Both the position numbers and the translations under genes were made by a program. Below, piece after piece: positions 3,720 to 35,854 of a DNA stretch of 38,474 nt. Each line of letters starts with the position of its first letter. The first letter of the stretch is position 1. The stretch lies in IMG/VR virus record IMGVR_UViG_2778261226_000006; one strand, 5' to 3'. The notes under the pieces were generated by a model. It saw nothing but the letters and a program-made list of their open reading frames with translations, was not told the origin of the DNA and searched no databases. The stretch is from a virus. Lineage: Duplodnaviria > Heunggongvirae > Uroviricota > Caudoviricetes.

Positions 3720-3946
3720 TGGCTGATGCAATGGATCTCGTACAGCAGCGCGTTGAAGAAGAACGCCAACGCCATATCCGTGCTGCCCGTGCCAAAACGC
3801 CGGGCGTGTCCCGCGTGCTTTGCGTTGAGTGTGAAGCGCCAATTCCGCCAGCACGCCGCCGTGCCATTCCGGGTGTGCAGCTTTGCATTACCTGTCAGGA
3901 AATCGCAGAGCTGAAAGGCAAACATTACAACGGATGTGCTGTATGA
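3719..3946 (+). CDS. TraR/DksA-family C4 zinc-finger protein
   Basis: 75 aa with CxxC...CxxC (CVECEAPI ... CITCQE) in the arrangement typical of phage TraR-like proteins; translationally coupled to flanking genes. Confidence 0.7.
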   Translation: MADAMDLVQQRVEEERQRHIRAARAKTPGVSRVLCVECEAPIPPARRRAIPGVQLCITCQEIAELKGKHYNGCAV

Positions 3947-4797
3947 GCACCATCCTGAAATGGGCAGGAAATAAAACCGCCATAATGTCCGAACTGAAAA
4001 AGCATCTTCCTGCTGGCCCGCGACTGGTTGAACCTTTCGCGGGTTCCTGTGCAGTGATGATGGAGACGGATTATCCCAGCTATCTTGTTGCGGATATTAA
4101 TCCTGATTTAATCAACCTCTATAAAAAGGTTGCTGCTGATTGTGAGGCGTTTATATCTCGTGCCAGAGCTTTATTTGAGGAAGCAAACAGGGAGGTGGCT
4201 TATTACAACATAAGGCAGGAGTTTAATTACTCCACTGAAATTACTGATTTCATGAAAGCGGTATATTTCCTGTATCTCAATCGTCACGGTTACCGTGGTT
4301 TATGTCGCTATAACAAGAGCAGGCATTTCAACATTCCCTACGGTAATTATAAAAATCCGTATTTCCCTGAAAAAGAAATTCGCGCATTTGCAGAGAAAGC
4401 CCAGCGGGCAACGTTTATCTGCGCCAGCTTTGATGAAACGCTGGCGATGTTGAAGGTGGGGGATGTGGTGTATTGCGATCCGCCTTATGACGGTACGTTT
4501 TCCGGCTATCACACTGATGGTTTCACTGAAGATGATCAGTATCACCTGGCATCCATTCTTGAACATCGGTCATCAGAAGGACATCCGGTCATTGTTTCTA
4601 ACAGTAACACGTCTTTGACCCGGTCCCTTTATCGTAATTTCACTCACCACTACATCAGGGCGAAACGCAGCATCGGCGTTGCAGCGGGGGAGGGAAAATT
4701 TGCAACAGAGATGATTGCCACTAAATCTGCTAATTGGTTTAGTGCCGATTTTAGTAGGGGACGTGACTCTACTGTTATTTTCGGGGTGCAAGTGTGA
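3943..4797 (+). CDS. dam: DNA adenine (N6) methyltransferase, Dam family
   Basis: ATGA overlap with upstream stop (3943-3946); SAM-binding motif FAGSCAV near N-terminus and catalytic DPPY motif; track ORF 3883..4797 has a likely spurious 5' extension. Confidence 0.85.
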
Positions 4798-5624
4798 AAG
4801 AAATGCACCACGGAATTCATCATTTCCATGGGACGCCTGTCTGGGGAAGTGCTGGCGACGTTCATCGTATTGCGGTGAGCGGAGCTGGCGCTTTCGTCTC
4901 CTATGTACGACCAGATCAGATTGCGGCGTCCATTCAGCACGCTCAGGTCGTCGGCATTGATAACGGCGCATTTTCTGCATGGGTGCGTGGGCTAAAAATT
5001 AACTGGAGTGATTTTTATAAATGGCTCCTGAACTATTACCACCATCCTAAGGTCGCTTTTTTTGTCATTCCTGATGTTGTGGACGGAGGTGAACGTGACA
5101 ATGATGCCCTGATAAACGAAGTTCCGAAAATGTTCTACGGGAAGGCAACTCCCGTCTGGCATCTGCACGAGTCAATCGATCGGCTTATCGAGCTATGTCG
5201 TGAATGGCCTCGTGTCTGCTTTGGATCGTCTGGTGAATATGCGGCTATCAGAACTGCGCACTGGCATCGTCGTATGCAGGACGCTTTTGAAGCAATTTAT
5301 TGCCGACACAATTTCAAAACAGCTGTTCATGGTTTGCGCATGCTTGACGGTCGTGTGTTGGGAAATTACCCACTGGCGACTGCCGACAGTACAAATCTTG
5401 CCTGCAATGTCCCCAAATTTAATAGCAAATATCCTGAGCTGACGCGGGCTATTCAGGAGGCTGAGTATTCGCGCAATCTGACGGAAAAGGAGCTGAAAGC
5501 TGTCATTCTGAAAAACCGTTGCGCAATTTTAAAAGGTGCAATTGAAGCTGTTCGCCCACCTTCAGTTTCTGATTGGCTGTCGAATGGTTTGCAGCCTTCA
5601 CAGCTCGAACTGGAGATTGCGTAA
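4794..5624 (+). CDS. Hypothetical protein co-operonic with dam; possible TGT-fold (DpdA-like) enzyme, unverified
   Basis: 276-aa ORF overlapping dam stop (GTGA) and A start (TAATG); His-rich N-terminus; segment [12 protein letters not shown] resembles the D-S/N-G-G/A-F catalytic loop of tRNA-guanine transglycosylase-fold proteins; no C-terminal Zn CxCxxC; function assignment is a by-eye hypothesis. Confidence 0.5.
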
Positions 5625-7996
5625 TGAACTACAGCTATTCCTGGAATGCTGAGAAAAAAGCAATCAATCCTTACGTAGAGACAGAAGAGCAATCTTCAGT
5701 TTCTGCGCTTTCAAACCTGATCGCTCTGTACGCTGCCGATAACGAGCAGGAACAGCTGCGCCGCGAGGCACTGAGTGATCAGGTCTGGGAGCGTTATTTC
5801 TTTAATGAATCCCGTGATCCTGTCCAGCGCGAAATGGAGCAGGATAAGCTCATTAGTCGGGCAAAGCTGGCGCATGAGCAGCAGCGTTTTAATCCAGATA
5901 TGGTCATTCTGGCGGACGTCAATGCCCAGCCTTCCCATATCAGCAAGCCGCTGATGCAACGTATTGAATACTTCAGCAGCCTGGGCAGGCCAAAGGCTTA
6001 TTCCCGCTATTTGCGTGAGACGATTAAGCCATGTCTGGAACGGCTGGAGCATGTACGCGACTGTCAGCTATCCACTTCTTTTCGCTTTATGGCAAGCCAT
6101 GAAGGGCTGGACGGCCTGCTGATCCTGCCTGAAATGAGTCAGGATCAGGTGAAACGCCTGTCCACCCTGGTAGCTGCGCATATGAGCATGTGCCTTGATG
6201 CAGCTTGTGGCGATTTGTATGTCACCGATGACGTTAAGCCAGAAGAAATCCGCAAGACATGGGAAAAGGTGGCAGCGGAAACCCTGCGTCTGGATGTCAT
6301 CCCGCCTGCGTTTGAGCAACTCCGCCGGAAAAGAAACCGCCGTAAACCCGTGCCCTATGAACTCATTCCGGGTTCGCTGGCGCGTATGTTGTGCGCTGAC
6401 TGGTGGTACCGGAAATTATGGAAGATGCGTTGCGAATGGCGGGAAGAGCAGTTGCGTGCTGTCTGCCTGGTCAGCAAAAAAGCATCTCCCTATGTCAGCT
6501 ATGAAGCCGTGATGCATAAACGTGAGCAGCGCCGTAAGTCGCTGGAGTTTTTTCGTTCTCATGAACTGGTGAACGAAGACGGCGACACGCTGGACATGGA
6601 GGATGTGGTAAACGCCAGCAGCAGCAACCCTGCGCATCGCCGCAATGAGATGATGGCCTGTGTTAAAGGCCTGGAGCTTATCGCGGAAATGCGCGGTGAC
6701 TGCGCCGTTTTCTACACCATCACCTGTCCGTCACGTTTCCATTCCACGCTAAATAATGGCAGGCCCAACCCAACTTGGACAAATGCGACGGTAAGACAAA
6801 GCAGTGATTATCTGGTCGGCATATTTGCTGCATTTCGTAAGGCGATGCACAAAGCCGGATTGCGGTGGTATGGCGTGCGGGTGGCTGAGCCGCATCATGA
6901 CGGTACAGTTCACTGGCACCTGTTGTGTTTTATGCGCAAAAAAGACCGCCGCGCCATCACTGCATTACTGCGTAAGTTTGCCATCCGTGAAGACCGCGAG
7001 GAACTGGGCAATAACACTGGGCCGCGCTTTAAGTCTGAGTTGATTAACCCGCGCAAAGGTACGCCAACAAGCTACATCGCGAAATACATCAGTAAGAACA
7101 TTGACGGGCGTGGTCTGGCTGGCGAGATCAGCAAGGAAACGGGTAAATCTCTGCGTGATAACGCTGAATACGTTAATGCCTGGGCGTCTCTGCATCGTGT
7201 TCAGCAATTCCGCTTCTTTGGCATTCCGGGGCGTCAGGCTTACCGTGAACTGCGATTGCTGGCTGGTCAGGCGGCAAGGCAACAGGGTGACAAAAAAGCA
7301 GGTGCGCCGGTACTGGATAACCCGCGCCTTGATGCCATTCTGGCTGCAGCTGATGCTGGTTGCTTTGCCACCTACATCATGAAGCAGGGCGGCGTACTGG
7401 TTCCCCGTAAATATCACCTCATCAGAACCGCTTATGAAATCAACGAAGAGCCGACCGCCTATGGCGATCACGGTATTCGTATTTATGGCATCTGGTCACC
7501 CATTGCAGAGGGCAAGATCTGCACTCATGCAGTGAAGTGGAAAATGGTTCGTAAAGCCGTTGACGTTCAGGAGGCGGCAGCCGACCAGGGCGCTTGCGCC
7601 CCTTGGACTCGTGGCAATAACTGTCCCCTTGCTGAAAATTTGAACCAACAAGGGAAAGACAAATCAGCTGATGGGGATACCAGAACGGACATTACCCACA
7701 TGGATGACAAGGAGTTGCACGATTACCTGCACAGTATGAACAAAAAAGAGCGCCGGGAACTGGCTGCAAGGTTACGCCTGGTGAAACCGAAACGGCGTAG
7801 AGACTACAAACAGCGAATTACAGACCATCAACGACAGCAGCTCGTCTATGAACTGAAGTCCAGAGGATTTGATGGCAGCGAGAAAGAGGTCGATTTACTC
7901 CTTCGCGGCGGCAGTATTCCGTCAGGAGCAGGCCTGCGTGTCTTCTATCGGAACCAGCGTTTGCAGGAAGATGATAAGTGGCGGAACCTGTATTAA
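5624..7996 (+). CDS. A: Replication initiation protein A (rolling-circle HUH endonuclease)
   Basis: 790 aa from ATG 5624 (TAATG overlap with upstream gene); HUH-like motif VHWHLL and two-tyrosine motif YIAKYISK (Y-x3-Y); size and position match P2/186 gene A; track ORF 5573 start is a likely 5' extension. Confidence 0.85.
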
Positions 7997-8090
7997 TTAC
8001 GCGGGTTAACAATTCGTGCTCTTAATAATACCAGGCATATCAGGCTGATGAACGTAAAAAAACGTTTTACATCAGTAAGATTATTATATA

Positions 8091-8106
8091 CTGTAAATAT
8101 AAACAG
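8091..8106. promoter_or_regulatory. LexA (SOS) box CTGT-N8-ACAG
   Basis: taCTGTaaatataaACAGtg matches the LexA consensus CTGT-N8-ACAG with AT-rich spacer; lies about 45 bp upstream of the small ORF / DinI-like pair. Confidence 0.5.
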
Positions 8107-8149
8107 TGGTTATCTATACAGTATTGTTTGCGGTGTCATAGGAGGAAAG

Positions 8150-8338
8150 ATGCAGGACTATTTTTTGGAGTCTTTGAAGCTCCAGCGCATTGATTTTTTT
8201 CTTAAGCTTGTAGCGGCTAGTGAGTGTAGTGATGAAGAGAAGGGGCTGGCCCTGCAGTGGGTTTCTGAATTGACTGATGAACTCATGGCAAAAATCAGAA
8301 GCCACGAATACAACCGCTCAATGGATGTCATCAGCTGA
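8150..8338 (+). CDS. Small hypothetical protein (SOS-controlled operon, first gene)
   Basis: ATG 8150 preceded by strong SD AGGAGGAAAG; 62 aa; track ORF 8048..8338 has a 5' extension through the promoter region. Confidence 0.45.
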   Translation: MQDYFLESLKLQRIDFFLKLVAASECSDEEKGLALQWVSELTDELMAKIRSHEYNRSMDVIS

Positions 8339-8348
8339 GGTGACTTTT

Positions 8349-8582
8349 ATGCGCATTGAAATAATGATCGATAAAGAGCAGAAGATTAGCCAGTCTACCC
8401 TGGACGCTCTGGAGTCCGAGCTTTACCGCAACCTGCAACCCATCTATCCCAAGACCGCTATCCGCATCCGTAAAGGGTCGGCAAACGGCGTTGAGCTGAG
8501 TGGCTTAAAGCTTGATGAAGACAAAAAGCGGGTGATGGAAATTATGCAACAGGTTTGGGAAGACGACAGCTGGCTGCACTAA
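8349..8582 (+). CDS. DinI-like protein (DinI / Tum C-terminal family)
   Basis: 77 aa starting MRIEIMIDK and ending ...QQVWEDDSWLH, matching the DinI pattern MRIEV ... W..D.W as I recall it; SD GAGGTG; downstream of LexA box. Confidence 0.7.
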   Translation: MRIEIMIDKEQKISQSTLDALESELYRNLQPIYPKTAIRIRKGSANGVELSGLKLDEDKKRVMEIMQQVWEDDSWLH

Positions 8583-8964: not shown

Positions 8965-9576
8965 ATGGATTTAGTCTTTAAAGTTCTGGCTTCGTTGGGT
9001 GGGGTGTCTTTTGTTGCATCTGGCATATTTGTTTGGATCGGGAAAGTTTATTTAGAAAGATATAAGTCGCGGCTAAACAAAGATATTGCTGAATTTCAAT
9101 CACAACTGAGTGCAACTAATGAAAGAATAAAGGCTAAGTTAGACAATTCTGTTTATGTAACGAAAGCGTATTTTGATAAGGAGTTATCAGCATATAGTCT
9201 CATTTGGAATTCGATGTTTGAAACCAGAGAAAGCGTGCTTAAGCTGAGGCCTGCGCTGGATCATGTTGACCCCAACGAACCATTTGAAGAGAGAAAATTT
9301 AGAAGGTTGAAAGTTTTTTTTGATGCATTTAACACTTTTGTTACAAGTGTTGAATCTAACAAACCGTTCATCTCACCAGAGGTTTATATAATCTTGGACC
9401 GTTTCCGGAAGGAATGCCTTTCAGAGTCAATATCGTTTAAGCATAGCGATCCAGAATTTGACGGGCAAAATTATTGGAAAGAGGCGGAGTTGAACCATAC
9501 AACCATCACCAAGCTTTTTGATGAGACGTGTGATGCAATTCGAAACAGGATGCACACATTAACTGTGGTTACGTAG
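8965..9576 (+). CDS. Membrane-anchored hypothetical protein in the tin/old position (candidate exclusion/defence gene)
   Basis: 203 aa; N-terminal hydrophobic helix VLASLGGVSFVASGIFVWIG followed by charged helical domain; AT-rich relative to phage core; own promoter and SD GGTGGGGG; located between replication gene and candidate cos. Confidence 0.6.
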   Translation: MDLVFKVLASLGGVSFVASGIFVWIGKVYLERYKSRLNKDIAEFQSQLSATNERIKAKLDNSVYVTKAYFDKELSAYSLIWNSMFETRESVLKLRPALDHVDPNEPFEERKFRRLKVFFDAFNTFVTSVESNKPFISPEVYIILDRFRKECLSESISFKHSDPEFDGQNYWKEAELNHTTITKLFDETCDAIRNRMHTLTVVT

Positions 9577-9668
9577 GTTTCCAAAAAGTCTCGATGCCCG
9601 CTTTGGAGATTGTGCATGTCTATGCCGCATGAATCCGCATGATCGTTTGAGGATCGTTTTAGCTGAGG

Positions 9669-9694
9669 CCCGCCAGGAGTGGCGGGATTTTGCT
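9669..9694 (+). terminator. Candidate terminator hairpin after the 203-aa ORF
   Basis: CCCGCC (9669-9674) / GGCGGG (9681-9686) stem with 6-nt loop, followed by ATTTTGCTT. Confidence 0.3.
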
Positions 9695-9737
9695 TATGTC
9701 ATGCAGGCGCATGAAAACCGCTACATAAAGCGGGCAG

Positions 9738-9756
9738 GCGTGGCGGGGATACGAGC
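9738..9756. other. Candidate cos site (cohesive-end region)
   Basis: GGCGTGGCGGGGA (9738-9750) matches the first 13 nt of the 186/P2 cohesive-end sequence as I recall it (GGCG[T/A]GGCGGGGAAAGCA); lies in a repeat-rich GC-richer non-coding stretch between the A-side accessory genes and the Q side, where cos sits in P2 prophages. Confidence 0.4.
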
Positions 9757-9825
9757 GCGCGCAAATATGGAAATTAGCTGCGTTTTGTTATATATAGGAG
9801 AGATATTAAAAGGGTAGGCACCACT

Positions 9826-10350
9826 ATGACTGTTTTACACCTTGTAGCAGACCACCTTGTTAAGCAGGCTAATACAACCCATAGAAAGGGGGAGGTGCAC
9901 GCAATATTAGCAGATGCATATGGTCGTTCTGCTTTTAATCGGTATTATTATGCTTGTTTTCTTAACGTCCGTGAGTTTGTTTCAACTATTGATTCCAATT
10001 GGGGCAAGGTCAAGCATGCAGATGTTCCAAAATTATTACGTGATAGTGTAAGTAGAAAGATAGAAGTTGAGCTCCAAAAATCAGAAAAAATTGGCGATAT
10101 AACTTTATGTGAATATAAATCTAAAAAGAGCTTAATACGTACTTCACTGAACAATATGGCTTCAACTATGGCATTGGCATATACAATTAGGGGAGTTGTT
10201 GATTATGAGCCGGAAATTGAGATGATATTCTGTAATGGCAGTTTTTCGATTAATAAAACATCAGTGGCTTCGGCTAAGGGGTGGCTACAAACCATTAATT
10301 CAGAAAGATCGAAGGTTACCAGAATTATGAAGGAGATTGGCTTTGTCTAA
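9826..10350 (+). CDS. Hypothetical protein, upstream gene of pair preceding the retron (candidate accessory/effector)
   Basis: 174-aa ORF from ATG 9826; overlaps the next ORF; no Walker, HNH, TM or other recognisable motif by eye. Confidence 0.6.
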   Translation: MTVLHLVADHLVKQANTTHRKGEVHAILADAYGRSAFNRYYYACFLNVREFVSTIDSNWGKVKHADVPKLLRDSVSRKIEVELQKSEKIGDITLCEYKSKKSLIRTSLNNMASTMALAYTIRGVVDYEPEIEMIFCNGSFSINKTSVASAKGWLQTINSERSKVTRIMKEIGFV

Positions 10351-11080
10351 CCAGAAAATATTATCAGAATTGTTGGTAAAATTCCCGTTTATAAAAGTTA
10401 AAGATGTAACAGATTTTATGGATACAATTCTGTTGATCATCCCAATTAACAAAATAGTACCATTGTCTGCTTCGAATAGTATAACAAAACGCCAGATATC
10501 TTTATTGGTGAAACGAATAACAGAAAAGCTAAATGTAAGAGTGTTGATTAGTTACTCACCATTTTCAGATAAAGACAATATTGAAGCGGCTTTAGTGGCG
10601 TTAGCGAGAAGTAATTTTAAAAAAGGGAAGATATCTGATTTGAATTTATCTTTCTTTGATTCGCAAAACGCAGTGCTTTATGTCTTTTGTAAAAACCTTA
10701 CATTATCAGAACGCGAGAAGTGGGAGTCGTTAGTTGTAGGGATATTAAACGGTTTTAATATAAAAGTGACTTCATTTGTATATGAGGCTAAAAATAATCC
10801 TGAACCTACAATGATGGTTATTTTAAGAGCGGCAAAAAAATGTCAGCCCTTTGATCTTCCAAGATTGTTCAGTCAACTTGATAATGGCGATTATCATATT
10901 GAATCACTTGATTGGCTGAATGGGAAGCTAGACAACTTACGTAAGAAAGGATTTTTATTAAGAAGCCATGACGGAACTTATAGAATGACATTGTCAGGGT
11001 TAGAAATAGTTCCAGTGACTAAATCTAGGCAAAGTTCTGATATAGAGAGGGTCCTTTATCTTGCACGCAAACATCTATAG
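10337..11080 (+). CDS. Hypothetical protein, second gene of pair preceding the retron (candidate accessory/effector)
   Basis: 247 aa as tracked from TTG 10337; likely start TTG 10343 with AAGGAG SD (10330-10335), implying translational coupling to the upstream ORF; alternating hydrophobic/charged N-terminal region, C-terminal segment KKGFLLRSHDGTYRMTLSGLEIV; family unknown. Confidence 0.6.
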   Translation: MALSNQKILSELLVKFPFIKVKDVTDFMDTILLIIPINKIVPLSASNSITKRQISLLVKRITEKLNVRVLISYSPFSDKDNIEAALVALARSNFKKGKISDLNLSFFDSQNAVLYVFCKNLTLSEREKWESLVVGILNGFNIKVTSFVYEAKNNPEPTMMVILRAAKKCQPFDLPRLFSQLDNGDYHIESLDWLNGKLDNLRKKGFLLRSHDGTYRMTLSGLEIVPVTKSRQSSDIERVLYLARKHL

Positions 11081-11089
11081 TGGTATATT
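11061..11089 (+). promoter_or_regulatory. Candidate sigma70 promoter for retron msr-msd-ret transcript
   Basis: -35 TTGCAC (11061-11066), 17-bp spacer, -10 TATATT (11084-11089); predicted start about 11096, coinciding with the a1 repeat. Confidence 0.45.
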
Positions 11090-11095
11090 CGCGTT

Positions 11096-11268
11096 GGTAG
11101 TGGCGTTCACGAGAGTATGCATCATGCTCATTTGTGAAGGTCGCGGACAGAATGTGCGCCTGCGAATCAGCAGTCGTTCCTTCGAAACGTCTGCTGATTC
11201 GCAGGCGTCATCAACGAAAGTTTTCATCAGCTTTGCTTAAGGATTGACCTTATGAAAACGCCACTACC
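11096..11268 (+). ncRNA. Candidate retron non-coding RNA (msr-msd)
   Basis: 12-nt perfect inverted repeat GGTAGTGGCGTT (11096-11107) / AACGCCACTACC (11257-11268) as a1/a2; GAGAG immediately after a1 (candidate branching G region); 17-bp perfect stem 11157-11173 / 11191-11207 as msd hairpin; directly upstream of and overlapping the start of the retron-type RT. Confidence 0.5.
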
Positions 11269-12229
11269 CTTATTTTTCACATTCACTGATGCCGAACAGT
11301 TTCTTAAGGCGTTGAGCACACCGCTGAGAGATAGATATTCTGCGGAACTTATTCGACTACAAGGCCTCAGGCTTCCCCCATTAGTTTCTTGGAGTATCTT
11401 GTCTGTTGCCATTGGCGTAAGCCCACAATTTATTACTTCGTTAATTAAGAATAAGTCAAAATACTATCGTGTTTTTTCTATTTCCAAAGGAAGAGGAAAG
11501 AAAAAAAGAATTATTGAAGCACCCAAGGTTAGTATAAAAATCATTCAGTCTTGGGTCGCTCATCATTTAAGCATTAATCATAGTCTTGGCATAAGTGAAA
11601 ATGCATATGCTTTTATCCCAGGTAAGAATGGGATATATGAAGCTGCAAGTAAACATTGTGGTGCAAAATGGATCCTGTCTATTGATTTAAGAGATTTTTT
11701 CCATACGATCACTTCAGATATAGTGATTTCAACATTAGTTGAAATCGGATATAGAGCCGATCAGGCTGCTAAATTGAGTGAATTACTTACCTTGAATCAG
11801 AGACTTCCGCAAGGTGCGCCAAGTAGCCCTGTTATCTCAAATTTAGTATTTAGGTCAACTGACTTAAAGATTAATGAGTTGATTTCTAATACGGGTATTA
11901 AATATACTAGATATGCTGATGATTTGACCTTCTCCGGTGATGATGAAACATTTGATATCGAGGAACTTAAAGATAATGTTGTAGAGTTGTTACTATCTGA
12001 TAATTGGGTTGTGGCTGAGGAAAAACTCAGAATAGCTAGGATTCCTAATAGATTAAAAGTACATGGTTTTCTAGTTCATGAAAATAAACCTAGATTGACT
12101 AAAGGCTATCGAAATAAAATTAGAGCATATAAACATTTATTGAGGACTGGGAAAATAGTTGAGAAGGATTTTGATAAAATTAAAGGGCATGTTAACTATA
12201 GTGAATATATTGATAGATTGAATGAGTAA
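11252..12229 (+). CDS. ret: Retron-type reverse transcriptase
   Basis: 325 aa; RT motifs LSIDLRDFFHTIT, LPQGAPSSPVISNLVF and YTRYADDLTFSG (YADD catalytic box), plus RLKVHGFLV in the position of the retron VTG motif; N-terminal Y..F.I.K..G..R.I..P pattern; close by-eye similarity to Ec86-type retron RT motifs. Confidence 0.9.
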   Translation: MKTPLPLFFTFTDAEQFLKALSTPLRDRYSAELIRLQGLRLPPLVSWSILSVAIGVSPQFITSLIKNKSKYYRVFSISKGRGKKKRIIEAPKVSIKIIQSWVAHHLSINHSLGISENAYAFIPGKNGIYEAASKHCGAKWILSIDLRDFFHTITSDIVISTLVEIGYRADQAAKLSELLTLNQRLPQGAPSSPVISNLVFRSTDLKINELISNTGIKYTRYADDLTFSGDDETFDIEELKDNVVELLLSDNWVVAEEKLRIARIPNRLKVHGFLVHENKPRLTKGYRNKIRAYKHLLRTGKIVEKDFDKIKGHVNYSEYIDRLNE

Positions 12230-12246
12230 GGGCCTAGCCCTTACTC
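12224..12246. terminator. Bidirectional hairpin spanning the convergent ret and Q stop regions
   Basis: GAGTAAGGGC (12224-12233) / GCCCTTACTC (12237-12246), 10-bp perfect stem, 3-nt loop; ret stop TAA 12227-12229 lies in the left arm, Q stop at 12249-12251 just beyond. Confidence 0.4.
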
Positions 12247-12248
12247 AT

Positions 12249-13280
12249 TTAATTTAATGTGTATATTCCAAAGGATATGATTTTATCTCCTATCCAGTTA
12301 TTTAACTCTTCTAGTCTTCTCTGTAATGGTATTAACTCATTCCTCACAAAAACAAGGCTTGCCTTCTCCACATCCCCAAAACCCCCAACATTATTAGGCA
12401 TTATCCCCATCATTTGTGGGGGTACACGATGCGCCGCCATCATGTCGTCCCGGCTTACGTTCTTGATGTTCAGAAACTCATCCTTCGCCGCGACTTCTGA
12501 TAACGGGATAATCTGAAGTCCGTCCTTTTTGCCGTTAGGAGAGTACATAAACAGATTGCGGAAGTTACCTGGTCCTTTGGCGCTTTTCATTGCATTGCGG
12601 AGGTTGTTCACATCCTCCTGGTTTTGTGCGGCGTCGGTCATGTACATGATGAAGCCTGCATGACTGCCGTTGATGTAATACTTCCGGCGGAACAGCGTGG
12701 CGGACTCGTTGAGCAGGGCTGACGGAATGGCAGAAAGATAACCGGGCAGGCCGTAGATCTCCTGGTTGATGTCCGGTTCCATCAGATGAAAAATGCTGCC
12801 TTTCGTGAACTGATACGGCTGGGTTGTCATACCGTATTGCACAAACCAGTAGGTATCCAGGTCTAACCCGCGTCGGGTGTATTTTGCCAGAGCAGGCTCA
12901 AGGGCGATAACTTCACCAAACCGGTTCGTGCGTTTCTCCAGGTAGGCGTTACCAAATACCAGATAGTCCTGCACAAAACGTGAAAAAGCCTGTTGGCTGA
13001 GCAGCGGGTGAGGGATGTAGGTGCTGGTCAGAATGTTGCATTTCACCGCAATCGGTGAGCTGTGATGCACGGCGGCGCGGAAGGTTCGCGCCAGTCCGTC
13101 AAAGCTGACGGGAGGCTCATACCAGCGATCTGTCTGTACGCATTCCACATAGTCCAGCAGTTCGCGGCGGTCAAGTACTGGAATGGGATCACCGAAGCTG
13201 AAAGCCTCAGCCGTTGGAGCGTTGCCTGGTTTTGTGTTGTGATCAACCTTTACCAGTTTGATGTTTTTATGTTTGCTCAT
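12249..13280 (-). CDS. Q: Portal protein (P2 gpQ-like)
   Basis: 343 aa, essentially the size of P2 Q; position before terminase large subunit on the same strand; ATGA overlap with upstream gene. Confidence 0.85.
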   Translation of the reverse strand: MSKHKNIKLVKVDHNTKPGNAPTAEAFSFGDPIPVLDRRELLDYVECVQTDRWYEPPVSFDGLARTFRAAVHHSSPIAVKCNILTSTYIPHPLLSQQAFSRFVQDYLVFGNAYLEKRTNRFGEVIALEPALAKYTRRGLDLDTYWFVQYGMTTQPYQFTKGSIFHLMEPDINQEIYGLPGYLSAIPSALLNESATLFRRKYYINGSHAGFIMYMTDAAQNQEDVNNLRNAMKSAKGPGNFRNLFMYSPNGKKDGLQIIPLSEVAAKDEFLNIKNVSRDDMMAAHRVPPQMMGIMPNNVGGFGDVEKASLVFVRNELIPLQRRLEELNNWIGDKIISFGIYTLN

Positions 13281-13987
13281 TCTGCCAGCTCCTCGTTAGC
13301 AAGAGGCCATTCGCACATAAACAGCATTCCCCAGTCCTCTGCTGATAATTCTTTTTTCATATCATTCAGCCAGTTATCAGTAAACAACATTGCTCCTGAT
13401 GCTACTGCATCATCAGCGGTGAATACCATGCGGGTTACACTGTTGTTTCTGCTTAGCTTTTTATATTCCTGCCATGCCTCCGGGTTAGGGCTGGGAGTGG
13501 TGTAGTAGGTGGCGTGGTGGTGTGCGTGCAAGGACATTCCTTTGGCGAGAGTAATCATATTTCTCGGTGATTCAGCCCAGGCATACTCTGACACGTAGAC
13601 ATTTCCACTGAGTGCGGCGGCGTGGCACTTGAGGTCGATAAAATAAATGACCGCACCATTGGGAAACTCCAGATATGTTTTGCCAGATTTTATTTTTCCA
13701 GTGCGCGTATAAGCTGCGGTCTGGCTTAAAAATGCTGACACATAGGCTTTGACTGCCTGCGCTGATGCGGTGCTGCAGCAGAGGAAAATCTGGTTACGCC
13801 CGGTATGCAGTGCATCGATCAGGGCCTCATAGGCAAAAAAGAAATCCGCTCCTGCCTGGCGCATTTTTGTGAGTAAACGGTTTCTACTCTTTGGGCCAGT
13901 GTTCCACTCATACTGGTAATCAAAGAAAGTGCTATCCACCGGAAGTCCCGCGATAGTCATGAGGTTAGTTGGGATTGGGGGCATCAA
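13277..13987 (-). CDS. Terminase large-subunit ATPase-domain paralog (truncated, diverged)
   Basis: 236 aa; aligns by eye to the central region of the adjacent P protein (AGADFFFAYEALIDALHTGRNQIFL vs IGATFYFAHEALIDALLTGRNQIFL; FPNGAVIYF vs LPNGATLYF; NVYVSEYAW vs NLYLDEYFW); lacks P's N-terminal ~150 aa and C-terminal nuclease region; ATGA overlaps at both ends. Confidence 0.7.
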   Translation of the reverse strand: MMPPIPTNLMTIAGLPVDSTFFDYQYEWNTGPKSRNRLLTKMRQAGADFFFAYEALIDALHTGRNQIFLCCSTASAQAVKAYVSAFLSQTAAYTRTGKIKSGKTYLEFPNGAVIYFIDLKCHAAALSGNVYVSEYAWAESPRNMITLAKGMSLHAHHHATYYTTPSPNPEAWQEYKKLSRNNSVTRMVFTADDAVASGAMLFTDNWLNDMKKELSAEDWGMLFMCEWPLANEELAE

Positions 13988-15750
13988 AAAATCTCCACAA
14001 TATTGCTGGTATTGGCGGACTCGCCCTGCAGCGGTTCGTTAAACAGTGCGTGCATTGTTGCCCAGGCCAGATCGGCATGGCTGGCTTCTTCGCTGCGGCT
14101 GGCTTCATAGGTCGGGCGGTTGCCGCTGGCGGTGGTGGCGCGACGGATTGCCATAAATGACTGCGCAATGTCGGTGTGCCCGGCGTCAAACTCCAGACGG
14201 CGGTGGCTGATAATGTCGTAGGCCTTGAGTACCAGGGCGTTTTTAACGTTGGGGTTGTAGACAAACTCCCGGACGGCAGGAAAGAACGCTTTCACGTTCT
14301 CGTAAACTCCGTGACCGACACCTGTCGAGTCGATACCGATATAGGTCACGTTGTACTGTTCGGTCAGTTTTTTGATGGCGTCAGCCTGGGCGCGGAAGTC
14401 CATCCCGCGCCACTGGTGACGCTCAAGAATGCGAAACTTACCGCCTGGCACGGCTGGCGGTGCCACCACCACGCATCCGGCGCTGTCGCCGTTCTGCGTA
14501 CCTTTTGCCGGGTCATAACCGATCCACACTTCTCGCCAGCCAAACGGGCGCAGGGCCAGTGCATGAAAGTCGGTCCAGACTTCCCAACTGTCCACCATGC
14601 ATGCCTGCAGCTCGCTGAGCGGAAATACGGACGCGAGATCGTCCACGAATTCACACATCAGCAGGTTCTGGTATTCGTCCGGGCTGTATTCCATGCGCAA
14701 CTGGTCAAGGTCGAACAGGTTACAGCCGCCGCGCACCGCATCTTCCACGGTGACTATCTGGCGGTATTGCCCGTCTGCACACAGCAGGCCTGGAGCCAGA
14801 TTGCTGTGGGACAGGTCGATGTCCACCTTGTCGGCTTTATTGCGCCCACGGTTGAATAGCGCACCGGACCAGAACGGATAAGCACTGTGTGTCAGGCTGG
14901 ATGGCGTGGAAAAATAGGTTTGTCGCCATTTTTTGTGAATAGCCATACCGGAAGCCACTTTGCGCAGCTCCTGGAATTTCGGTATCCAGAAATATTCATC
15001 CAGATACAGGTTTCCGTGGTAACTCTGGGCCGTGCGGGCATTGGTGCCGAGGAAATACAGTGTGGCCCCGTTGGGAAGCACCATCGGATCGCCTTTCAGC
15101 TCCACTTCCACTTCTTTGGCGAAGTCGATGATGTACTGCTTAAAGACGTGGGCCTGTGCCTTGCTGGCGGAAAGGAAAATCTGGTTACGTCCGGTAAGCA
15201 GAGCGTCAATCAGGGCTTCATGGGCAAAGTAAAAGGTCGCGCCGATCTGGCGTGACTTCAGCAGGTTGCGGATGCGGTTGGTTTTTCCGGCTTCCCACCA
15301 GTGGCGCTGGTAGTTGAACATGGAGGAATGGAAGATTTCTTCCAGCTTCTCAATCTGCTCATCGGTGAAAACATTCTTTTCCGGCTGACGGCGCGGGCCT
15401 TTGTTGCGGTTGGCGACGTTAGGGTTTAAGTCGGCTTCGTTGCCGCCATTGTTAAACTTGCCGATCCGCGCGTGGCGTTCCGACTGGCGCGCCAGCAGGT
15501 CAATCTCTTTGAAATCTTTCCCTTCTTTGTGCTCCTTCATAATGAGCTGGCAGTAGCGTGCGGCGGTGGTGAGCTGCATCTGATCCAGCGGCCCATAGTC
15601 ACCCCACTTGTCGCGTTTCTTCCAGCTGTGAACGGTTGCAACTTTCTCGCCCAGCATTTCAGCAATGCGGGCTACACGGTATCCCTGAAAGTACAGCAGC
15701 ATGGCCTGCCGACGGGGATCGAGATCTGCGGGTGTCAGTGTGGTGTTCAT
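13984..15750 (-). CDS. P: Terminase large subunit (P2 gpP-like ATPase/nuclease)
   Basis: 588 aa, close to P2 P size; N-terminal HTH-like region, central ATPase region, C-terminal extension; divergent from O across a late-promoter region. Confidence 0.9.
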   Translation of the reverse strand: MNTTLTPADLDPRRQAMLLYFQGYRVARIAEMLGEKVATVHSWKKRDKWGDYGPLDQMQLTTAARYCQLIMKEHKEGKDFKEIDLLARQSERHARIGKFNNGGNEADLNPNVANRNKGPRRQPEKNVFTDEQIEKLEEIFHSSMFNYQRHWWEAGKTNRIRNLLKSRQIGATFYFAHEALIDALLTGRNQIFLSASKAQAHVFKQYIIDFAKEVEVELKGDPMVLPNGATLYFLGTNARTAQSYHGNLYLDEYFWIPKFQELRKVASGMAIHKKWRQTYFSTPSSLTHSAYPFWSGALFNRGRNKADKVDIDLSHSNLAPGLLCADGQYRQIVTVEDAVRGGCNLFDLDQLRMEYSPDEYQNLLMCEFVDDLASVFPLSELQACMVDSWEVWTDFHALALRPFGWREVWIGYDPAKGTQNGDSAGCVVVAPPAVPGGKFRILERHQWRGMDFRAQADAIKKLTEQYNVTYIGIDSTGVGHGVYENVKAFFPAVREFVYNPNVKNALVLKAYDIISHRRLEFDAGHTDIAQSFMAIRRATTASGNRPTYEASRSEEASHADLAWATMHALFNEPLQGESANTSNIVEIF

Positions 15751-17804: not shown

Positions 17805-18455
17805 ATGAGCCTGAGTCCCGCACGGCAGCATCGCCTGCGCGTTCAGGCTGAACAGGCCGCCCGTGAGGGTGGCAGTGTTCGCCACGCGTCGGGCTATGAC
17901 CTGATGCTGCTGCAACTGGCAGAAGACCGCCGCCGTCTCAAGGGCGTTCAGTCCACGGTGAAAAAAGCGGAAATCAAGGTGGAGCTGCTGCCGAAATATG
18001 CCGCCTGGGCGGAGGGCGTCCTGGCTGCCGGAGGCGCTCAACAGGATGACGTGCTGATGTACGTGATGCTGTGGCGCATTGATGCCGGAGATTATGCCGG
18101 GGCGCTGGAGATCGGGCGTCATGCCCTGCGTCATGGCTGGGTGATGCCGCTGGGTAACCGCAACGTGCAGACCGTGCTGGCAGAGGAAATGGCAGACGCC
18201 GCGCAGAGCGCAATACTTGCCGCCACCGGCTTTGATGCCGATCTGTTGTTGCAGACGCTGGAGCTGACAGACGGTCTGGATATGCCGGACCAGTCACGGG
18301 CGCGTCTGCATAAAGCGATTGGCGCTGTCCTGAGTGAAAGCAATCCGGCTTCCGCCCTTAATCATCTCAACCATGCGTTACAGCTCGATCCCCGCTGTGG
18401 CGTGAAAAAAGACAAACAGCAGCTGGAGCGCAGACTGCGCAATGACAGCCGCTGA
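17805..18455 (+). CDS. M: Terminase small (endonuclease) subunit (P2 gpM-like)
   Basis: 216 aa; position after N as in P2. Confidence 0.75.
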   Translation: MSLSPARQHRLRVQAEQAAREGGSVRHASGYDLMLLQLAEDRRRLKGVQSTVKKAEIKVELLPKYAAWAEGVLAAGGAQQDDVLMYVMLWRIDAGDYAGALEIGRHALRHGWVMPLGNRNVQTVLAEEMADAAQSAILAATGFDADLLLQTLELTDGLDMPDQSRARLHKAIGAVLSESNPASALNHLNHALQLDPRCGVKKDKQQLERRLRNDSR

Positions 18456-25713: not shown

Positions 25714-26315
25714 TAAGTAAAGCTGTATTAAATAATGAACTCATCGCCACAAAGGCCGGAGACATTACCGTTTATAATTATGATGGTGAAACACGGGAAT
25801 ATATTTCCACATCAACTGAATATCTTGCTGTGGGTGTCGGTATCCCGGCATGTTCCTGTTTAGATGCTCCTGGCTCATATAAAGCTGGTTATGCAATTTG
25901 CCGTTCTGCAGATTTTAACTCATGGGAATATGTGCCAGACCATCGCGGTGAAATCGTCTATAGCACCGAAACAGGAGAATCAAAAGAAATCACAGTTCCG
26001 GGTGATTACCCTGAAAATACAACCACTATCGCCCCGTTAACGTCATACGATAAATGGGATGGTGAGAAATGGGTGACCGACACTGAGGCACAGCATAACG
26101 CCGCAGTAGACGCGGCAGAAGTACGGCGCCAGTCACTGATTGATGCGGCTATGGCTTCCATTAGTCTGATTCAGCTGAAATTGCAGGCCGGGCGGAAGCT
26201 GACGCAGGCAGAAACAACCCGGCTTAACGCTGTGCTGGATTACATTGACGCGGTGACTGCAACAGATATCAGCACCGCGCCGGATGTCATCTGGCCTGAA
26301 CTACCGGAGGCGTAG
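25710..26315 (+). CDS. G: Tail fibre assembly protein (P2 gpG-like), currently expressed orientation
   Basis: 201 aa; ATGA overlap with H stop; inside invertible segment. Confidence 0.75.
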   Translation: MISKAVLNNELIATKAGDITVYNYDGETREYISTSTEYLAVGVGIPACSCLDAPGSYKAGYAICRSADFNSWEYVPDHRGEIVYSTETGESKEITVPGDYPENTTTIAPLTSYDKWDGEKWVTDTEAQHNAAVDAAEVRRQSLIDAAMASISLIQLKLQAGRKLTQAETTRLNAVLDYIDAVTATDISTAPDVIWPELPEA

Positions 26316-26730
26316 GCCATTCAATATCTGGAGCACTGGAGGTATCAACCAGTTCCAGTGCGTCCAGATAATCCAGCCATAAATTATATTGTTCCAGCTC
26401 GTCACCTTTCAGACGACCAATAGCAGCTTTGCCAGGCCACTGATGGGTATTGATGTAGGTATTGACTTCTGAAACCAAAGATATTTTTTTCATTTCAGCC
26501 GCCAGCACCTCATCCTCTTTTGAAGGCGGCGGGGAATTAATCCATATTGGCCGTCCTGAACTGTCAGCGCCAATTTCTTTCCCTTCTGGATGCAGCCCAA
26601 GAAATTGCTCATATGTTTCTCTGGTAATTTCAATAACATCATCAGGAAGCGTTCCCGCATCCTCATATTCTGGAAACAATTCTTGCAGATAAAAACTTTT
26701 ACTTCCGGGTGAAAAGAATACTGAGTTCAT
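26287..26730 (-). CDS. Alternative tail fibre assembly protein (silent orientation)
   Basis: 147 aa on minus strand, convergent with G; C-terminal region (LWLDYLDALELVDTSSAPDIEWP) resembles G C-terminus (NAVLDYIDAVTATDISTAPDVIWP); follows alternative fibre exon. Confidence 0.7.
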   Translation of the reverse strand: MNSVFFSPGSKSFYLQELFPEYEDAGTLPDDVIEITRETYEQFLGLHPEGKEIGADSSGRPIWINSPPPSKEDEVLAAEMKKISLVSEVNTYINTHQWPGKAAIGRLKGDELEQYNLWLDYLDALELVDTSSAPDIEWPTPPVVQAR

Positions 26731-26732
26731 TC

Positions 26733-27199
26733 TTACCGTCCAATGATTAACGCTGAGACGCTGGTATCTGAAGGAAAGGCTGCATTCAGTGGTTTGTCGA
26801 CTTTGAACACAATCGTATTATTCCCCCTGACAGCGGCAAAAGAACAAACCGCCGTCGCGTATGAACCTGTAATATTACTGGATACACCACCATAGGCTGT
26901 TGTTGATACCAGAGGGATAACGCCCAGCACCTTATTAGGAAATACAAAGGGCAATGTGGCTGTGGCAATATAAGACTTATTAGAACCTGTGATGGCATAA
27001 GCATTATCAGTCATTCCATTCATCGCCACTGGGCCGCTTATACTTACAGTAACCATCTGAATGATTAGCCCGTCAGGTTGACGAATCACAAAATTTCCAT
27101 TGCCACCAGTAGCCGTCCAGAAAGACATATCAGGGATTTGGTTTTCCCCGTTGCCCACATTCCGTTTTGCCGCTTCTCCCAAACCAACGTTTAAGAAAA
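26733..27199 (-). CDS. Alternative tail fibre C-terminal exon (promoterless; fused to H N-terminus after inversion)
   Basis: Minus-strand ORF 26733..27227; the reading frame through the right crossover site encodes VGLGEA, matching LGLGEG at the left site in H, so inversion creates an in-frame fusion. Confidence 0.65.
27174..27199. other. Invertase crossover site, right (inverted copy)
   Basis: TTCTCCCAAACCAACGTTTAAGAAAA; left half TTCTCCCAAACCAA is the reverse complement of the TTGGTTTGGGAGAA half-site at 25241-25254. Confidence 0.7.
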
Positions 27200-27254
27200 T
27201 GCAGAGGTAACAGCTAACTGGCATCATCTCCGGTTTTTATTCAGGGGGATGATC

Positions 27255-35631: not shown

Positions 35632-35698
35632 TTTGCCGCCAAAGATAAGTAAAGTAGTTTCTAACTTATTGATTATGGAATGGAAGAATAGCAGGCAA

Positions 35699-35742
35699 CA
35701 AAAAACCCATCAACCTTGAACCGAAATGGCGGGGTTGATGGG
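35699..35742 (-). terminator. Rho-independent terminator downstream of ybjL
   Basis: CCCATCAACC (35706-35715) / GGTTGATGGG (35733-35742) 10-bp stem; on the minus strand followed by a U-tract (plus-strand A-run 35700-35705). Confidence 0.6.
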
Positions 35743-35854
35743 CTCCACAAAATGGGGACATCAAAGAAAAGCAGTGGCACTAATTAAGACTGATGCCCTG
35801 CGGAAAAGTTCTGCGGTTGTGCAAAAAAATTTCATTTTCAGGGCAACTTCAGTT

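What the first reader, a model, noticed from the sequence alone, without database searches (positions are those of the whole stretch)
9580..9825. Candidate cos region splits the accessory genes into a right-end island and a left-end retron island
GGCGTGGCGGGGA at 9738-9750 matches the start of the P2/186 cohesive end as I recall it. It lies in a GC-richer, repeat-rich non-coding stretch with CCGCATGA repeated 10 bp apart, GATCGTTT repeated twice, and a CCCGCC/GGCGGG hairpin. If this is cos, the retron cluster (9826-12229) is inserted between cos and Q, where P2 has only a short packaging flank. That raises the question of how packaging signals are kept.
Basis: partly seen in the sequence, partly recalled or inferred. 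Interest (0 to 1): 0.45.

Follow-up and report, generated by a model that had tools for sequence, protein, structure and literature searches.

The report
P2-family phage cos packaging site
This stretch is the DNA-packaging (cos) site of a P2/186-type prophage, flanked on each side by swappable accessory genes (here a type IX retron on one side); the layout has been known since 1996, so the call is correct but ordinary.

Summary
It lies in a 151-bp block (9612-9762) homologous to the annotated cos sites of 186, P2 and P4 (42-44 of 55 positions around the nick). The first 26 bp are identical to phages SEN8 and Cartapus. Among 38 distinct related loci, identity is about 85-100% inside the block and falls to chance at 9611 and 9763.

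The predicted cohesive end is 9737-9755, GGCGTGGCGGGGATACGAG. To the right lies a complete type IX retron (HEPN, wHTH, msr-msd, RT) running to the portal gene Q. P2 and 186 have only about 190 bp there.

The conserved signal is compact: 125 bp on the right-end side and 26 bp on the left. Cargo starts immediately outside it, and isolated phages carry 0.7-2.2 kb at this position.

The layout is published (Dodd & Egan 1996; Rousset 2022). Cleavage itself is untested.

Three side observations:
- The invariant nick segment acts as a recombination hinge.
- The last ~15 portal codons travel with the cargo.
- A twin-GATC element is specific to this lineage.

The parts
9612..9762 (.). cos core module: the conserved packaging and cleavage signal, 125 bp on the right-end side of the nick and 26 bp on the left-end side
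   Evidence: About 85-100% column identity among 38 distinct loci with the same cos type, falling to about 25-30% at 9611 and 9763. blastn matches to 40 loci start at about 9612 and end at about 9762. Aligns with the annotated cos regions of 186, P2 and P4.
9737..9755 (+). Predicted 19-nt 5' cohesive end GGCGTGGCGGGGATACGAG. Top-strand nick 5' of 9737; bottom-strand nick between 9755 and 9756.
   Evidence: In register with the annotated 19-nt cohesive ends of 186 (15/19) and P2 (14/19). Identical to the 19-mer annotated as a putative cos site at the start of the phage SEN8 record. The nick positions are inferred by homology, not measured.
9756..9762 (+). CGCGCGC, the last conserved element on the left-end side
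   Evidence: P2 and 186 have TGCGCGC and P4 has CGCGCGC at the same position. All related loci diverge immediately after it.
9614..9641 (+). Three GCATG boxes (9614, 9627, 9637).
   Evidence: The same three (T)GCAT(G) boxes with similar spacing occur in 186, P2, P4 and in the 125-sequence family alignment. Enrichment P about 4e-6.
9641..9655 (.). Twin GATC (Dam) sites 11 bp apart.
   Evidence: Two or more GATC are present here in 38 of 42 cos cores of the TACGAG/TACGAT type, against 4 of 83 of all other types (3 TAGCAT, 1 AAGTAT).
9669..9686 (.). GC-rich inverted repeat CCCGCCA-GGAG-TGGCGGG
   Evidence: Pairing is kept in 65% of cells across 125 distinct family members, against 24-32% when the partner is slid by 1-3 columns. 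Pair 9670/9685 occurs as CG, GC or AT. The repeat is present in 186 and P4 but weak in P2.
9700..9713 (.). GCAT boxes 4 and 5 (CATGCAGGCGCATG), followed by AAAACC
   Evidence: TCATGCA-N3-GCAT(G/T)AAAACC is conserved in 186, P4 and the family consensus.
9718..9733 (.). Short inverted repeat CCGCT-N6-AGCGG abutting the nick
   Evidence: 66% of cells are paired in the family alignment, against 23-44% for the slid controls.
8089..8582 (+). LexA box (8089-8107), a small ORF, and a DinI/Tum-like gene (8350-8582): the basal part of the right-end region
   Evidence: CTGT-N8-ACAG at 8091-8106. Pfam DinI E=3.8e-24. 186 has the same arrangement as p95-LexA-tum.
8965..9576 (+). Right-end island cargo: a 203-aa ORF of unknown function
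   Evidence: Full-length match to phrog_26391 (unknown function). No Pfam or PADLOC assignment. Present in Cartapus and E. coli 2018-05-5CC but absent from other carriers of the same retron.
9763..9825 (+). Leader of the retron cassette; the left boundary of the left-end island is at 9763-9765
   Evidence: Identity to related loci drops to chance here. No sigma-70 consensus promoter was found.
9826..10350 (+). Type IX retron HEPN-like protein (174 aa)
   Evidence: PADLOC HEPN_IX E=1.4e-52, full length.
10343..11080 (+). Type IX retron winged-HTH protein (245 aa), overlapping the HEPN gene by 8 bp
   Evidence: PADLOC HTH_IX E=1.5e-61. The start follows the RefSeq annotation of the identical gene. 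The 8-bp overlap is as described for type IX (PMC7736814).
11096..11268 (+). Retron non-coding RNA (msr-msd): 12-nt a1/a2 inverted repeats at 11096-11107 and 11257-11268, and a 22-bp msd hairpin at 11157-11207
   Evidence: The fold has z = -8.3 against shuffles.
11252..12229 (+). Retron reverse transcriptase (325 aa)
   Evidence: PADLOC RT_IX E=4.2e-129. Pfam RVT_1 E=5.4e-23.
12224..12246 (.). Perfect 10-bp hairpin GAGTAAGGGC-CTA-GCCCTTACTC between the convergent RT and portal stop codons. It takes the place of the tQ/tW terminator of P2/186.
   Evidence: Read directly from the sequence. Not flagged by the terminator scan. tQ and tW are annotated at the equivalent place in P2 and 186.
12249..13280 (-). 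Portal gene Q. Its last 100 nt are 29% GC against 52% for the rest of the gene. Nucleotide homology to related loci resumes only at about 12251-12361, typically around 12290, so roughly the last 15 codons belong to the exchanged cassette.
   Evidence: Pfam Phage_portal. GC values. Homology restart points. The tail co-varies with the cargo.
13984..15750 (-). Terminase large subunit (gpP), the enzyme expected to cut cos
   Evidence: Pfam Terminase_5, Terminase_6N and Terminase_6C.
17805..18455 (+). Terminase small subunit (gpM), the expected cos-recognition subunit
   Evidence: Pfam Phage_term_smal E=2.3e-40.

Best explanation
Window 9612-9762 is the cos site of a 186/Fels-2-related P2-family (Peduoviridae) prophage.

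**Inferred mechanism.** This rests on homology and on what is established for P2 and 186, and was not tested here.
- After induction the phage terminase (gpM 17805-18455 and gpP 13984-15750) recognises the roughly 125 bp on the right-end side. That side holds five GCAT boxes, a GC-rich inverted repeat, and a short inverted repeat next to the nick.
- Terminase then makes staggered nicks 5' of 9737 on the top strand and between 9755 and 9756 on the bottom strand.
- The result is linear virion DNA with 19-nt 5' cohesive ends, GGCGTGGCGGGGATACGAG.

**What is shown.**
- Only 26 bp to the right of the top-strand nick (left-end side) are conserved.
- DNA on both sides of this module is free to vary. 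The window carries a small right-end island (ORF 8965-9576, downstream of a LexA-controlled DinI/Tum-like operon). It also carries a left-end island: a complete type IX retron from 9763 to about 12290, which brings its own version of the last ~15 portal codons.
- The invariant nick segment and the portal gene serve as the homology arms through which cassettes are exchanged.
For: **Sequence homology**
- Identity to the annotated 186 cos is 15/19 in the overhang, 44/55 in the -29..+26 core and 72/125 on the right-end side. P2 and P4 give 42/55 and 43/55.
- The five GCAT boxes and both inverted repeats are shared across 125 distinct family members.

**Identity to isolated phages**
- The first 26 bp are identical to SEN8, a plaque-forming Felsduovirus whose record is linearised exactly at this 19-mer.
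- They are also identical to phage Cartapus and to the prophage remnant carrying retron Ec86 in E. coli C41(DE3).

**Boundaries**
- Conservation boundaries fall at 9612 and 9762 in 38 distinct loci.

**Context**
- The order is integrase, CI/CII, Dam, gpA, LexA-DinI, cos, then Q and P divergent from O, N, M and L.

**Cargo is tolerated at this position**
- SEN8 has two genes (2.2 kb) and Cartapus one gene between cos and the portal gene.
- In this cos lineage, 20 of 23 IMG/VR loci have 0.56-3.4 kb there. For P2-type cos the figure is 4 of 25.
- About 1,290 of 5,426 complete E. coli genomes have this cos core and portal gene. Every two-piece match in the 40 rows listed carries a different cargo between them: PIN, AIPR, TIR, DprA, SIR2, retron St85/Ec86 and others.

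**Hinge**
- The window equals E. coli 2018-05-5CC up to 9764 and E. coli MFDS1016424 from 9721 onward.
- The same retron sits beside three different right-end flanks and several core haplotypes.

**Literature**
- Ec67 and Ec86 replace about 180 bp between cos and the packaging-gene terminator of a 186-related prophage (Dodd & Egan 1996, as cited in PMC6868368).
- The cosL-Q position is described as a hotspot (PMC5694545).
- The gpA-gpQ interval is described as a hotspot adjacent to cos (PMC9122126).
Against: - No virion ends have been mapped for this cos variant. SEN8's site is labelled 'putative', and Cartapus's depositors started their record 32 nt upstream with a 59-nt 'putative cos'.
- Overhang positions 14-19 (TACGAG) differ from P2/186 (AAGCAC/AAGCAT). 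An altered nick offset therefore cannot be excluded from sequence alone.
- One study found that longer flanks around the P2/P4 cos improved cosmid transduction (PMC9594776). Sequences outside the conserved core may therefore affect efficiency.
- Whether this particular prophage is inducible is unknown.
- The pattern used to collect loci fixed 18 of the 26 nick-region positions. The 100% identity at those positions is partly by construction; the drop to chance outside them is not.
Confidence: 0.9

Rival explanations
1. The site is a genuine cos homologue but is functionally dead here. The prophage would be defective, or the 2.5-kb insertion would have separated cos from something it needs, so no packaging occurs from this site.
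For: - Function was not tested.
- E. coli B carries the same cos type in a prophage remnant whose replication gene is annotated as incomplete.
- Longer flanks improved cos-plasmid transduction in one study.
Against: - The core is identical over all 151 bp to that of another E. coli prophage with an empty cos-Q gap.
- The 26-bp nick region is identical to isolated phages that themselves carry 0.7-2.2 kb at this position.
- All hallmark replication, packaging, head and tail genes checked are present as full-length ORFs with strong Pfam matches. A LexA-DinI/Tum-like induction module is also present.
- The identical retron RT gene is indexed in 90 blocks of the assembly collection. All 8 contexts shown are P2-type, which fits spread by a mobile phage.
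Confidence: 0.08
2. The site is a functional cos, but terminase cuts at different positions in this lineage, giving a different overhang length or offset. The last six bases of the P2/186 overhang are replaced here.
For: - Positions 14-19 are TACGAG here against AAGCAT/AAGCAC in 186/P2.
- The family shows at least nine variants at these six positions, while positions 1-13 and 20-26 are nearly fixed.
- No end-mapping was found for this variant.
Against: - The flanking conserved blocks keep exactly the same spacing as in P2, 186 and P4...AAGCGGGCA before the nick and (T/C)GCGCGC after position 19.
- The SEN8 authors placed the ends at the same 19-mer.
Confidence: 0.07
3. The match is not a packaging site at all. 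It would be a chance GC-rich match inside a regulatory or terminator region between two accessory operons.
For: The consensus scan flags 9669-9686 as terminator-like on the + strand and 9733-9718 on the - strand.
Against: - The 151-bp block aligns with annotated cos sites of three reference phages.
- It is the only part of the gpA-Q interval conserved among dozens of otherwise different loci.
- The T-run after the hairpin is not conserved in 186 or P4.
Confidence: 0.01

Closest known systems
cos of coliphage 186 (Eganvirus; NC_001317, cohesive end GGCGTGGCGGGGAAAGCAT)
   Same: - The first 13 overhang bases are identical, and 44 of 55 positions in the -29..+26 core match.
- It has the same GCAT boxes, GC-rich inverted repeat and ...CATAAAG(C/T)GGGCA motif before the nick.
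- Its position is the same, between a LexA-controlled tum/DinI operon and the portal gene.
   Different: - Overhang positions 14-19 are TACGAG, not AAGCAT.
- A twin-GATC element is present here and absent in 186.
- 186 has only 195 bp (with terminator tW) between cos and the portal stop. The window has 2,512 bp.
cos of Salmonella phage SEN8 (Felsduovirus, KT630647.2) and Escherichia phage Cartapus (Elveevirus, NC_070909)
   Same: - The 26-bp nick region is identical, including the 19-mer that the SEN8 authors give as cos.
- The right-end core is 88% identical to SEN8 and 97% to Cartapus.
- Both carry cargo genes between cos and the portal gene.
   Different: The cargo differs: a hypothetical protein plus an HNH endonuclease in SEN8, a DUF4145 protein in Cartapus, and a type IX retron here. 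In both records the cos site is labelled putative.
Retrons Ec67 and Ec86 in 186-related prophages (Dodd & Egan 1996, Virology 219:115)
   Same: [quoted passage not shown]
- The Ec86 locus in E. coli C41(DE3) has the identical 26-bp nick region. It diverges from the window immediately after CGCGCGC, exactly as other cargos do.
   Different: - Ec86 is a type II retron (NDT-like effector plus RT) and Ec67 is type I-C (RT-Toprim). The window has a type IX retron (HEPN, wHTH, RT), which is rare at this site: 3 of 5,426 complete E. coli genomes.
- The 1996 paper itself could not be read here.
P2/P4 cos-adjacent defence hotspot (Rousset et al. 2022, PMC9122126)
   Same: A variable anti-phage cargo region lies between gpA and gpQ, adjacent to cos, and includes retrons.
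   Different: - That study treats gpA-gpQ as one locus. Here the interval resolves into two independently assorting islands separated by the 151-bp cos module.
- In P2 proper the cargo (old, tin) lies on the gpA side. In this lineage it lies mostly on the Q side.

Membership tests
P2-family (Peduoviridae) cos site | 19-nt cohesive-end sequence of the form GGCG(A/T)GGCGGGGA-N6, followed by (T/C)GCGCGC | tested here: met
   9737-9762 is GGCGTGGCGGGGATACGAGCGCGCGC. It matches 186 at 15/19 plus 6/7 and P4 at 14/19 plus 7/7. The N6 part varies within the family.
P2-family (Peduoviridae) cos site | The conserved ~55-bp core shared by P2, P4 and relatives (Ziermann & Calendar 1990, as cited in PMC5694545 and PMC9594776) | tested here: met
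   Over -29..+26, the window matches 186 at 44/55, P2 at 42/55 and P4 at 43/55. The exact limits of the published 55-bp core were taken as the P2/P4 shared block, because the original paper was not available.
P2-family (Peduoviridae) cos site | Location between the gpA-side accessory region and the portal/terminase genes Q and P, which run divergently from O, N, M and L | tested here: met
   Pfam matches: Phage_GPA 5573-7996, Phage_portal 12249-13280(-), terminase 13984-15750(-), GPO, P2 capsid, small terminase, GPL.
P2-family (Peduoviridae) cos site | Cleavage by the cognate terminase to give 19-nt 5' cohesive ends on virion DNA | not testable with these tools
   This needs virion DNA. Only 'putative' annotations exist for this cos variant.
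cos-to-portal cargo hotspot of P2-like phages | Unrelated gene content at the same slot in otherwise homologous phages, bounded by cos and the portal gene | tested here: met
   Many different cargos lie between the same cos core and portal gene in E. coli genomes and phage records. Slot length ranges from 164 to 3,381 bp in this lineage. Empty-site relatives are L007 and L132.
Type IX retron (Mestre et al. 2020) | Gene order HEPN-like then winged-HTH (overlapping by about 8 bp), upstream of the ncRNA and a clade-7 RT | tested here: met
   PADLOC HEPN_IX 1.4e-52, HTH_IX 1.5e-61 and RT_IX 4.2e-129, all full length. The genes overlap by 8 bp at 10343-10350. Family description.
Type IX retron (Mestre et al. 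2020) | msr-msd RNA with terminal a1/a2 inverted repeats and an msd hairpin | tested here: met
   12-nt perfect a1/a2 repeats at 11096-11107 and 11257-11268, and a 22-bp hairpin at 11157-11207. Fold z = -8.3. No Rfam family matched.
Type IX retron (Mestre et al. 2020) | Production of msDNA and anti-phage activity | not testable with these tools
   Requires experiment.

The most novel reading that the evidence does not exclude
In this lineage the cos module may be more than a passive cutting site. It holds two GATC sites one helical turn apart (9641-9644 and 9652-9655). They are kept in 38 of 42 cos cores of this type, and the 7-bp spacer between them is somewhat less conserved. They are present in only 4 of 83 cores of other P2-family types. 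The lineage usually encodes its own Dam-class methyltransferase (3883-4797 here). Packaging or cos cleavage could therefore be gated by adenine methylation, as is known for the P1 pac site. That would tie terminase action to replication or methylation state.
Probability: 0.1. Interest if true: 0.45.

Novelty: already known. Interest (0 to 1): 0.15.

Why it matters
- For annotation, the finding fixes the virion genome ends. It shows that the retron lies at the extreme left end of the packaged DNA and the 203-aa ORF at the extreme right end.
- It adds a rare cargo, a type IX retron, to a well-documented defence hotspot.
- The practical value is modest. The 151-bp module with base-precise boundaries is a ready-made minimal cos candidate for cosmid or phagemid design in this helper lineage.
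- The hinge behaviour explains how defence cassettes are shuffled between P2-like prophages without loss of packaging.
- Nothing here challenges current understanding.

Tried and rejected
- **Rfam, whole window at gathering thresholds.** The only hit was the host sRNA RybB at 35697-35775. Nothing matched in the cos or retron region.
- **P4-like satellites with the TACGAG overhang.** Finding one would have shown independently that this variant is packaged. The satellites in the sample carry GAGCAT, AAGCAC or AAGCAT variants only.
- **Relatives of the retron RT in IMG/VR viral contigs.** None was confirmed. An exact-match look-up in assemblies worked instead.
- **Dodd & Egan 1996.** The paper is not in the held library, so its content is cited only through papers that cite it.
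- **Promoter for the retron operon.** The sigma-70 consensus scan found none in the 9763-9825 leader, so the promoter remains unidentified.
- **Terminator reading of the 9669-9686 hairpin.** I considered it as the terminator of the right-end operon. This stays open but unsupported, because the T-run is not conserved in 186 or P4 while the inverted repeat is.
- **Dam gene and twin-GATC association.** The counts are 13/19 against 2/29.

Full report
**1. The observation**

- The other listed features are all there:
  - CCGCATGA occurs twice, 10 bp apart, at 9625 and 9635.
  - GATCGTTT occurs twice, 11 bp apart, at 9641 and 9652.
  - The CCCGCCA/TGGCGGG inverted repeat is at 9669-9686.
- The stretch lies between ORFs that end at 9576 and start at 9826.
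- The core is 57.6% GC, against 38% and 36% for the flanks.
- GCATG occurs five times in 125 bp against 0.22 expected. No other 125-bp stretch of the window has more.

**2. What it is**

The window is a P2-family prophage of the 186/Fels-2 type. The genes confirmed are:

| Module | Genes |
|---|---|
| Lysogeny and early | integrase, 186-type CI and CII, a D12 (Dam-class) methyltransferase |
| Replication | gpA |
| Induction | LexA box upstream of a DinI/Tum-like gene |
| Packaging and head | portal Q and terminase P, divergent from O, N, M and L |
| Tail and late control | gpD, Ogr |

The reference records for 186 and P2 annotate their 19-nt cohesive ends at positions 1-19. I joined each record's right end to its left end and aligned the junctions with the window. 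The alignment shows homology well beyond the 13-mer:
- window: ...GCATGAAAACCGCTACATAAAGCGGGCA|GGCGTGGCGGGGATACGAG CGCGCGC
- 186: ...GCATTAAAACCGACCCATAAAGTGGGCA|GGCGTGGCGGGGAAAGCAT TGCGCGC

Identity counts:

| Region | 186 | P2 | P4 |
|---|---|---|---|
| -29..+26 core (55 bp) | 44/55 | 42/55 | 43/55 |
| 125 bp on the right-end side | 72/125 | 57/125 | 68/125 |

- three GCAT boxes at about -124, -111 and -101;
- a GC-rich inverted repeat, paired in 65% of cells against 24-32% in slid controls;
- two more GCAT boxes followed by AAAACC;
- a short inverted repeat abutting the nick.

**3. Boundaries of the signal**

- A pattern scan of viral contigs returned 120 loci. The overhang variant found here, TACGAG at positions 14-19, was the commonest. 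It goes with portal and gpA proteins 80-97% identical to the window's.
- Among 38 distinct loci of this type, column identity to the window is about 85-100% from 9612 to 9762. It drops to about 25-30%, which is chance level, at 9611 and at 9763.
- blastn gives the same limits.
- The conserved packaging module is therefore 151 bp: 125 bp on the right-end side of the top-strand nick and only 26 bp on the left-end side.
Cargo is simply inserted outside a compact signal that lies almost entirely on the other side of the cut.

**4. Evidence that such an arrangement works**

- Salmonella phage SEN8 was propagated from a plaque and sequenced from purified particles. Its authors give ggcgtggcggggatacgag as the cos site (PMC5427200).
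- The SEN8 record starts at that 19-mer and ends at the equivalent of window 9736. It carries two genes (2.2 kb) between cos and the portal gene.
- Phage Cartapus has the same 26 bp and a DUF4145 gene in the slot.
- In the IMG/VR sample, 20 of 23 loci of this cos type carry 0.56-3.4 kb between cos and the portal stop. For P2-type cos the figure is 4 of 25; there the cargo (old and tin in P2 itself) lies on the gpA side instead.
- About 1,290 of 5,426 complete E. coli genomes have this cos core and portal gene. In the 40 rows listed, every two-piece match has a different cargo between them, among them PIN, AIPR, TIR, SEFIR, DprA, SIR2, DUF262 and retron St85/Ec86.

**5. The cargo here**

- 9826-12229 is a complete type IX retron:
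  - PADLOC HEPN_IX, HTH_IX and RT_IX all match at full length, with E-values from 1e-52 to 1e-129.
  - The first two genes overlap by 8 bp, as described for the type.
  - The ncRNA has 12-nt a1/a2 repeats and a 22-bp msd hairpin, with fold z = -8.3.
- A perfect 10-bp hairpin at 12224-12246 sits between the convergent RT and portal stop codons, where P2 and 186 have tQ and tW.
- The cassette is rare at this site in complete E. coli genomes, at 3 of 5,426.
- The identical RT protein is nevertheless indexed in 90 blocks of the public assembly collection (24 contigs were read). All eight contexts displayed show the same P2-type left-end arrangement.

**6. Independent assortment and the hinge**

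- The window is identical to E. coli 2018-05-5CC from at least 9477 through 9764. That span includes all 11 polymorphic positions of the cos core. That strain has an empty cos-Q gap of 182 bp.
- The window is identical to E. coli MFDS1016424, which has the same retron, from 9721 onward. It is unrelated to that strain to the left of 9612.
- The crossover that produced the window's combination therefore lies within 9721-9764. This is the invariant segment holding the nick, the cohesive end and CGCGCGC.
- Carriers of the identical retron have at least three different right-end flanks (no extra gene, the 203-aa ORF, or a 219-aa ORF). Their cos cores are mosaic haplotypes.
- No complete E. coli genome in the collection has the window's exact combination. 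The draft assembly GCA_002233375.1 is identical across this region.

**7. Comparison with the literature**

[quoted passage not shown] - Rousset et al. 2022 describe the gpA-gpQ interval adjacent to cos as a hotspot of anti-phage systems, including retrons (PMC9122126).
- The Ec86 locus of E. coli C41(DE3) has the same 26-bp nick region as the window and diverges right after it.
- The finding is therefore a correct identification of a known element in a known arrangement. The only new instance-level detail is a type IX retron as cargo.

**8. What remains inferred**

- The nick positions, the 19-nt overhang and the functionality of this prophage rest on homology.
- Overhang positions 14-19 differ from P2/186, and no end-mapping for this variant was found.
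- One report that longer flanks improve cos-plasmid transduction (PMC9594776) is a caution against treating the 151-bp core as fully sufficient.

**9. Side observations**

- **Portal tail.**
  - The last ~15 codons of the portal gene belong to the exchanged cassette.
  - The final 100 nt of Q are 29% GC against 52% for the rest.
  - Occupied sites average 37% GC in the last 60 nt, against 53% for empty sites. This correlates with cargo GC at r = 0.61.
  - Loci with different cargo share only about 59% identity in the last 48 nt, against 85% further in. The two same-cargo pairs share 100%.
- **Twin GATC.** The twin-GATC element in the core is specific to this cos lineage, at 38/42 against 4/83. 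The lineage usually carries a Dam-class methyltransferase. That association is confounded by ancestry.
- **Unexplained repeat.** A 10-nt perfect inverted repeat, at 9595-9604 and 9727-9736, brackets the right-end part of the core.

Noticed in passing
window 12249-12360 (3' end of portal gene Q): The last ~15-35 codons of the portal gene are AT-rich like the cargo: 29% GC in the last 100 nt, against 52% for the rest of the gene. They co-vary with the cargo type across related loci. The right junction of the exchanged cassette therefore lies inside the portal ORF, and each cassette brings its own portal C-terminal tail (motif ...ELNxW(L/I)xxxxIxFxxYxL).
   Followed up: partly
window 9721-9764: The recombination joint that created this prophage's combination of right-end island and retron maps to the invariant nick and cohesive-end segment. 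The window matches one E. coli strain up to 9764 and another from 9721 onward. Other carriers of the same retron show mosaic cos-core haplotypes.
   Followed up: yes
window 9641-9655, and 3883-4797: Two GATC sites 11 bp apart inside the cos core are kept in 38 of 42 cores of this cos type but in only 4 of 83 of other P2-family types. The prophage encodes a D12 (Dam-class) adenine methyltransferase. A Dam gene lies upstream of gpA in 13 of 19 twin-GATC loci against 2 of 29 others, but this is confounded by phylogeny.
   Followed up: partly
window 9595-9604 and 9727-9736: A perfect 10-nt inverted repeat, TGCCCGCTTT / AAAGCGGGCA. The right arm is the last 10 nt of the predicted right end. The left arm lies just outside the conserved cos core and is seen only in loci with the same right-end island. 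My rough estimate of the chance expectation in a 400-bp region is about 0.1. Unexplained.
   Followed up: no
window 8089-8582: A near-consensus LexA box, TACTGTAAATATAAACAGT, lies upstream of a small ORF and a DinI/Tum-like gene, as in the 186 p95-tum SOS operon. The prophage is probably SOS-inducible.
   Followed up: partly
window 8965-9576: The only extra gene of the right-end island is a 203-aa ORF with a full-length match to phrog_26391 (unknown function) and no Pfam or PADLOC assignment. Some RefSeq records label its homologue 'valyl-tRNA synthetase', apparently from a weak sub-threshold match to the Val_tRNA-synt_C arm.
   Followed up: partly
window 9629-9817: Annotation pipelines call a 62-aa ORF (or a pseudogene with an internal stop) running straight across the cos core in related genomes. 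It is most likely spurious.
   Followed up: no
window 13211-13987: Nucleotide homology to related prophages stops at about 13211, so the first ~23 portal codons vary. An extra 236-aa ORF with a Terminase_6N domain sits between Q and P, as in 186. It is absent from some carriers of the same retron.
   Followed up: no
window 26287-27821: A serine invertase (Resolvase plus HTH_7, 27249-27821) lies next to two reverse-strand ORFs downstream of the tail-fibre genes H and G. This looks like an invertible host-range segment.
   Followed up: no
window 35113-37540: Host DNA begins after ogr: the RybB sRNA is at 35697-35775 (-) and an Asp-Al_Ex/TrkA_C transporter gene at 35855-37540 (-). attR therefore lies at about 35.05-35.7 kb. 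An unassigned AT-rich 172-aa ORF (35113-35631, -) sits in between.
   Followed up: no
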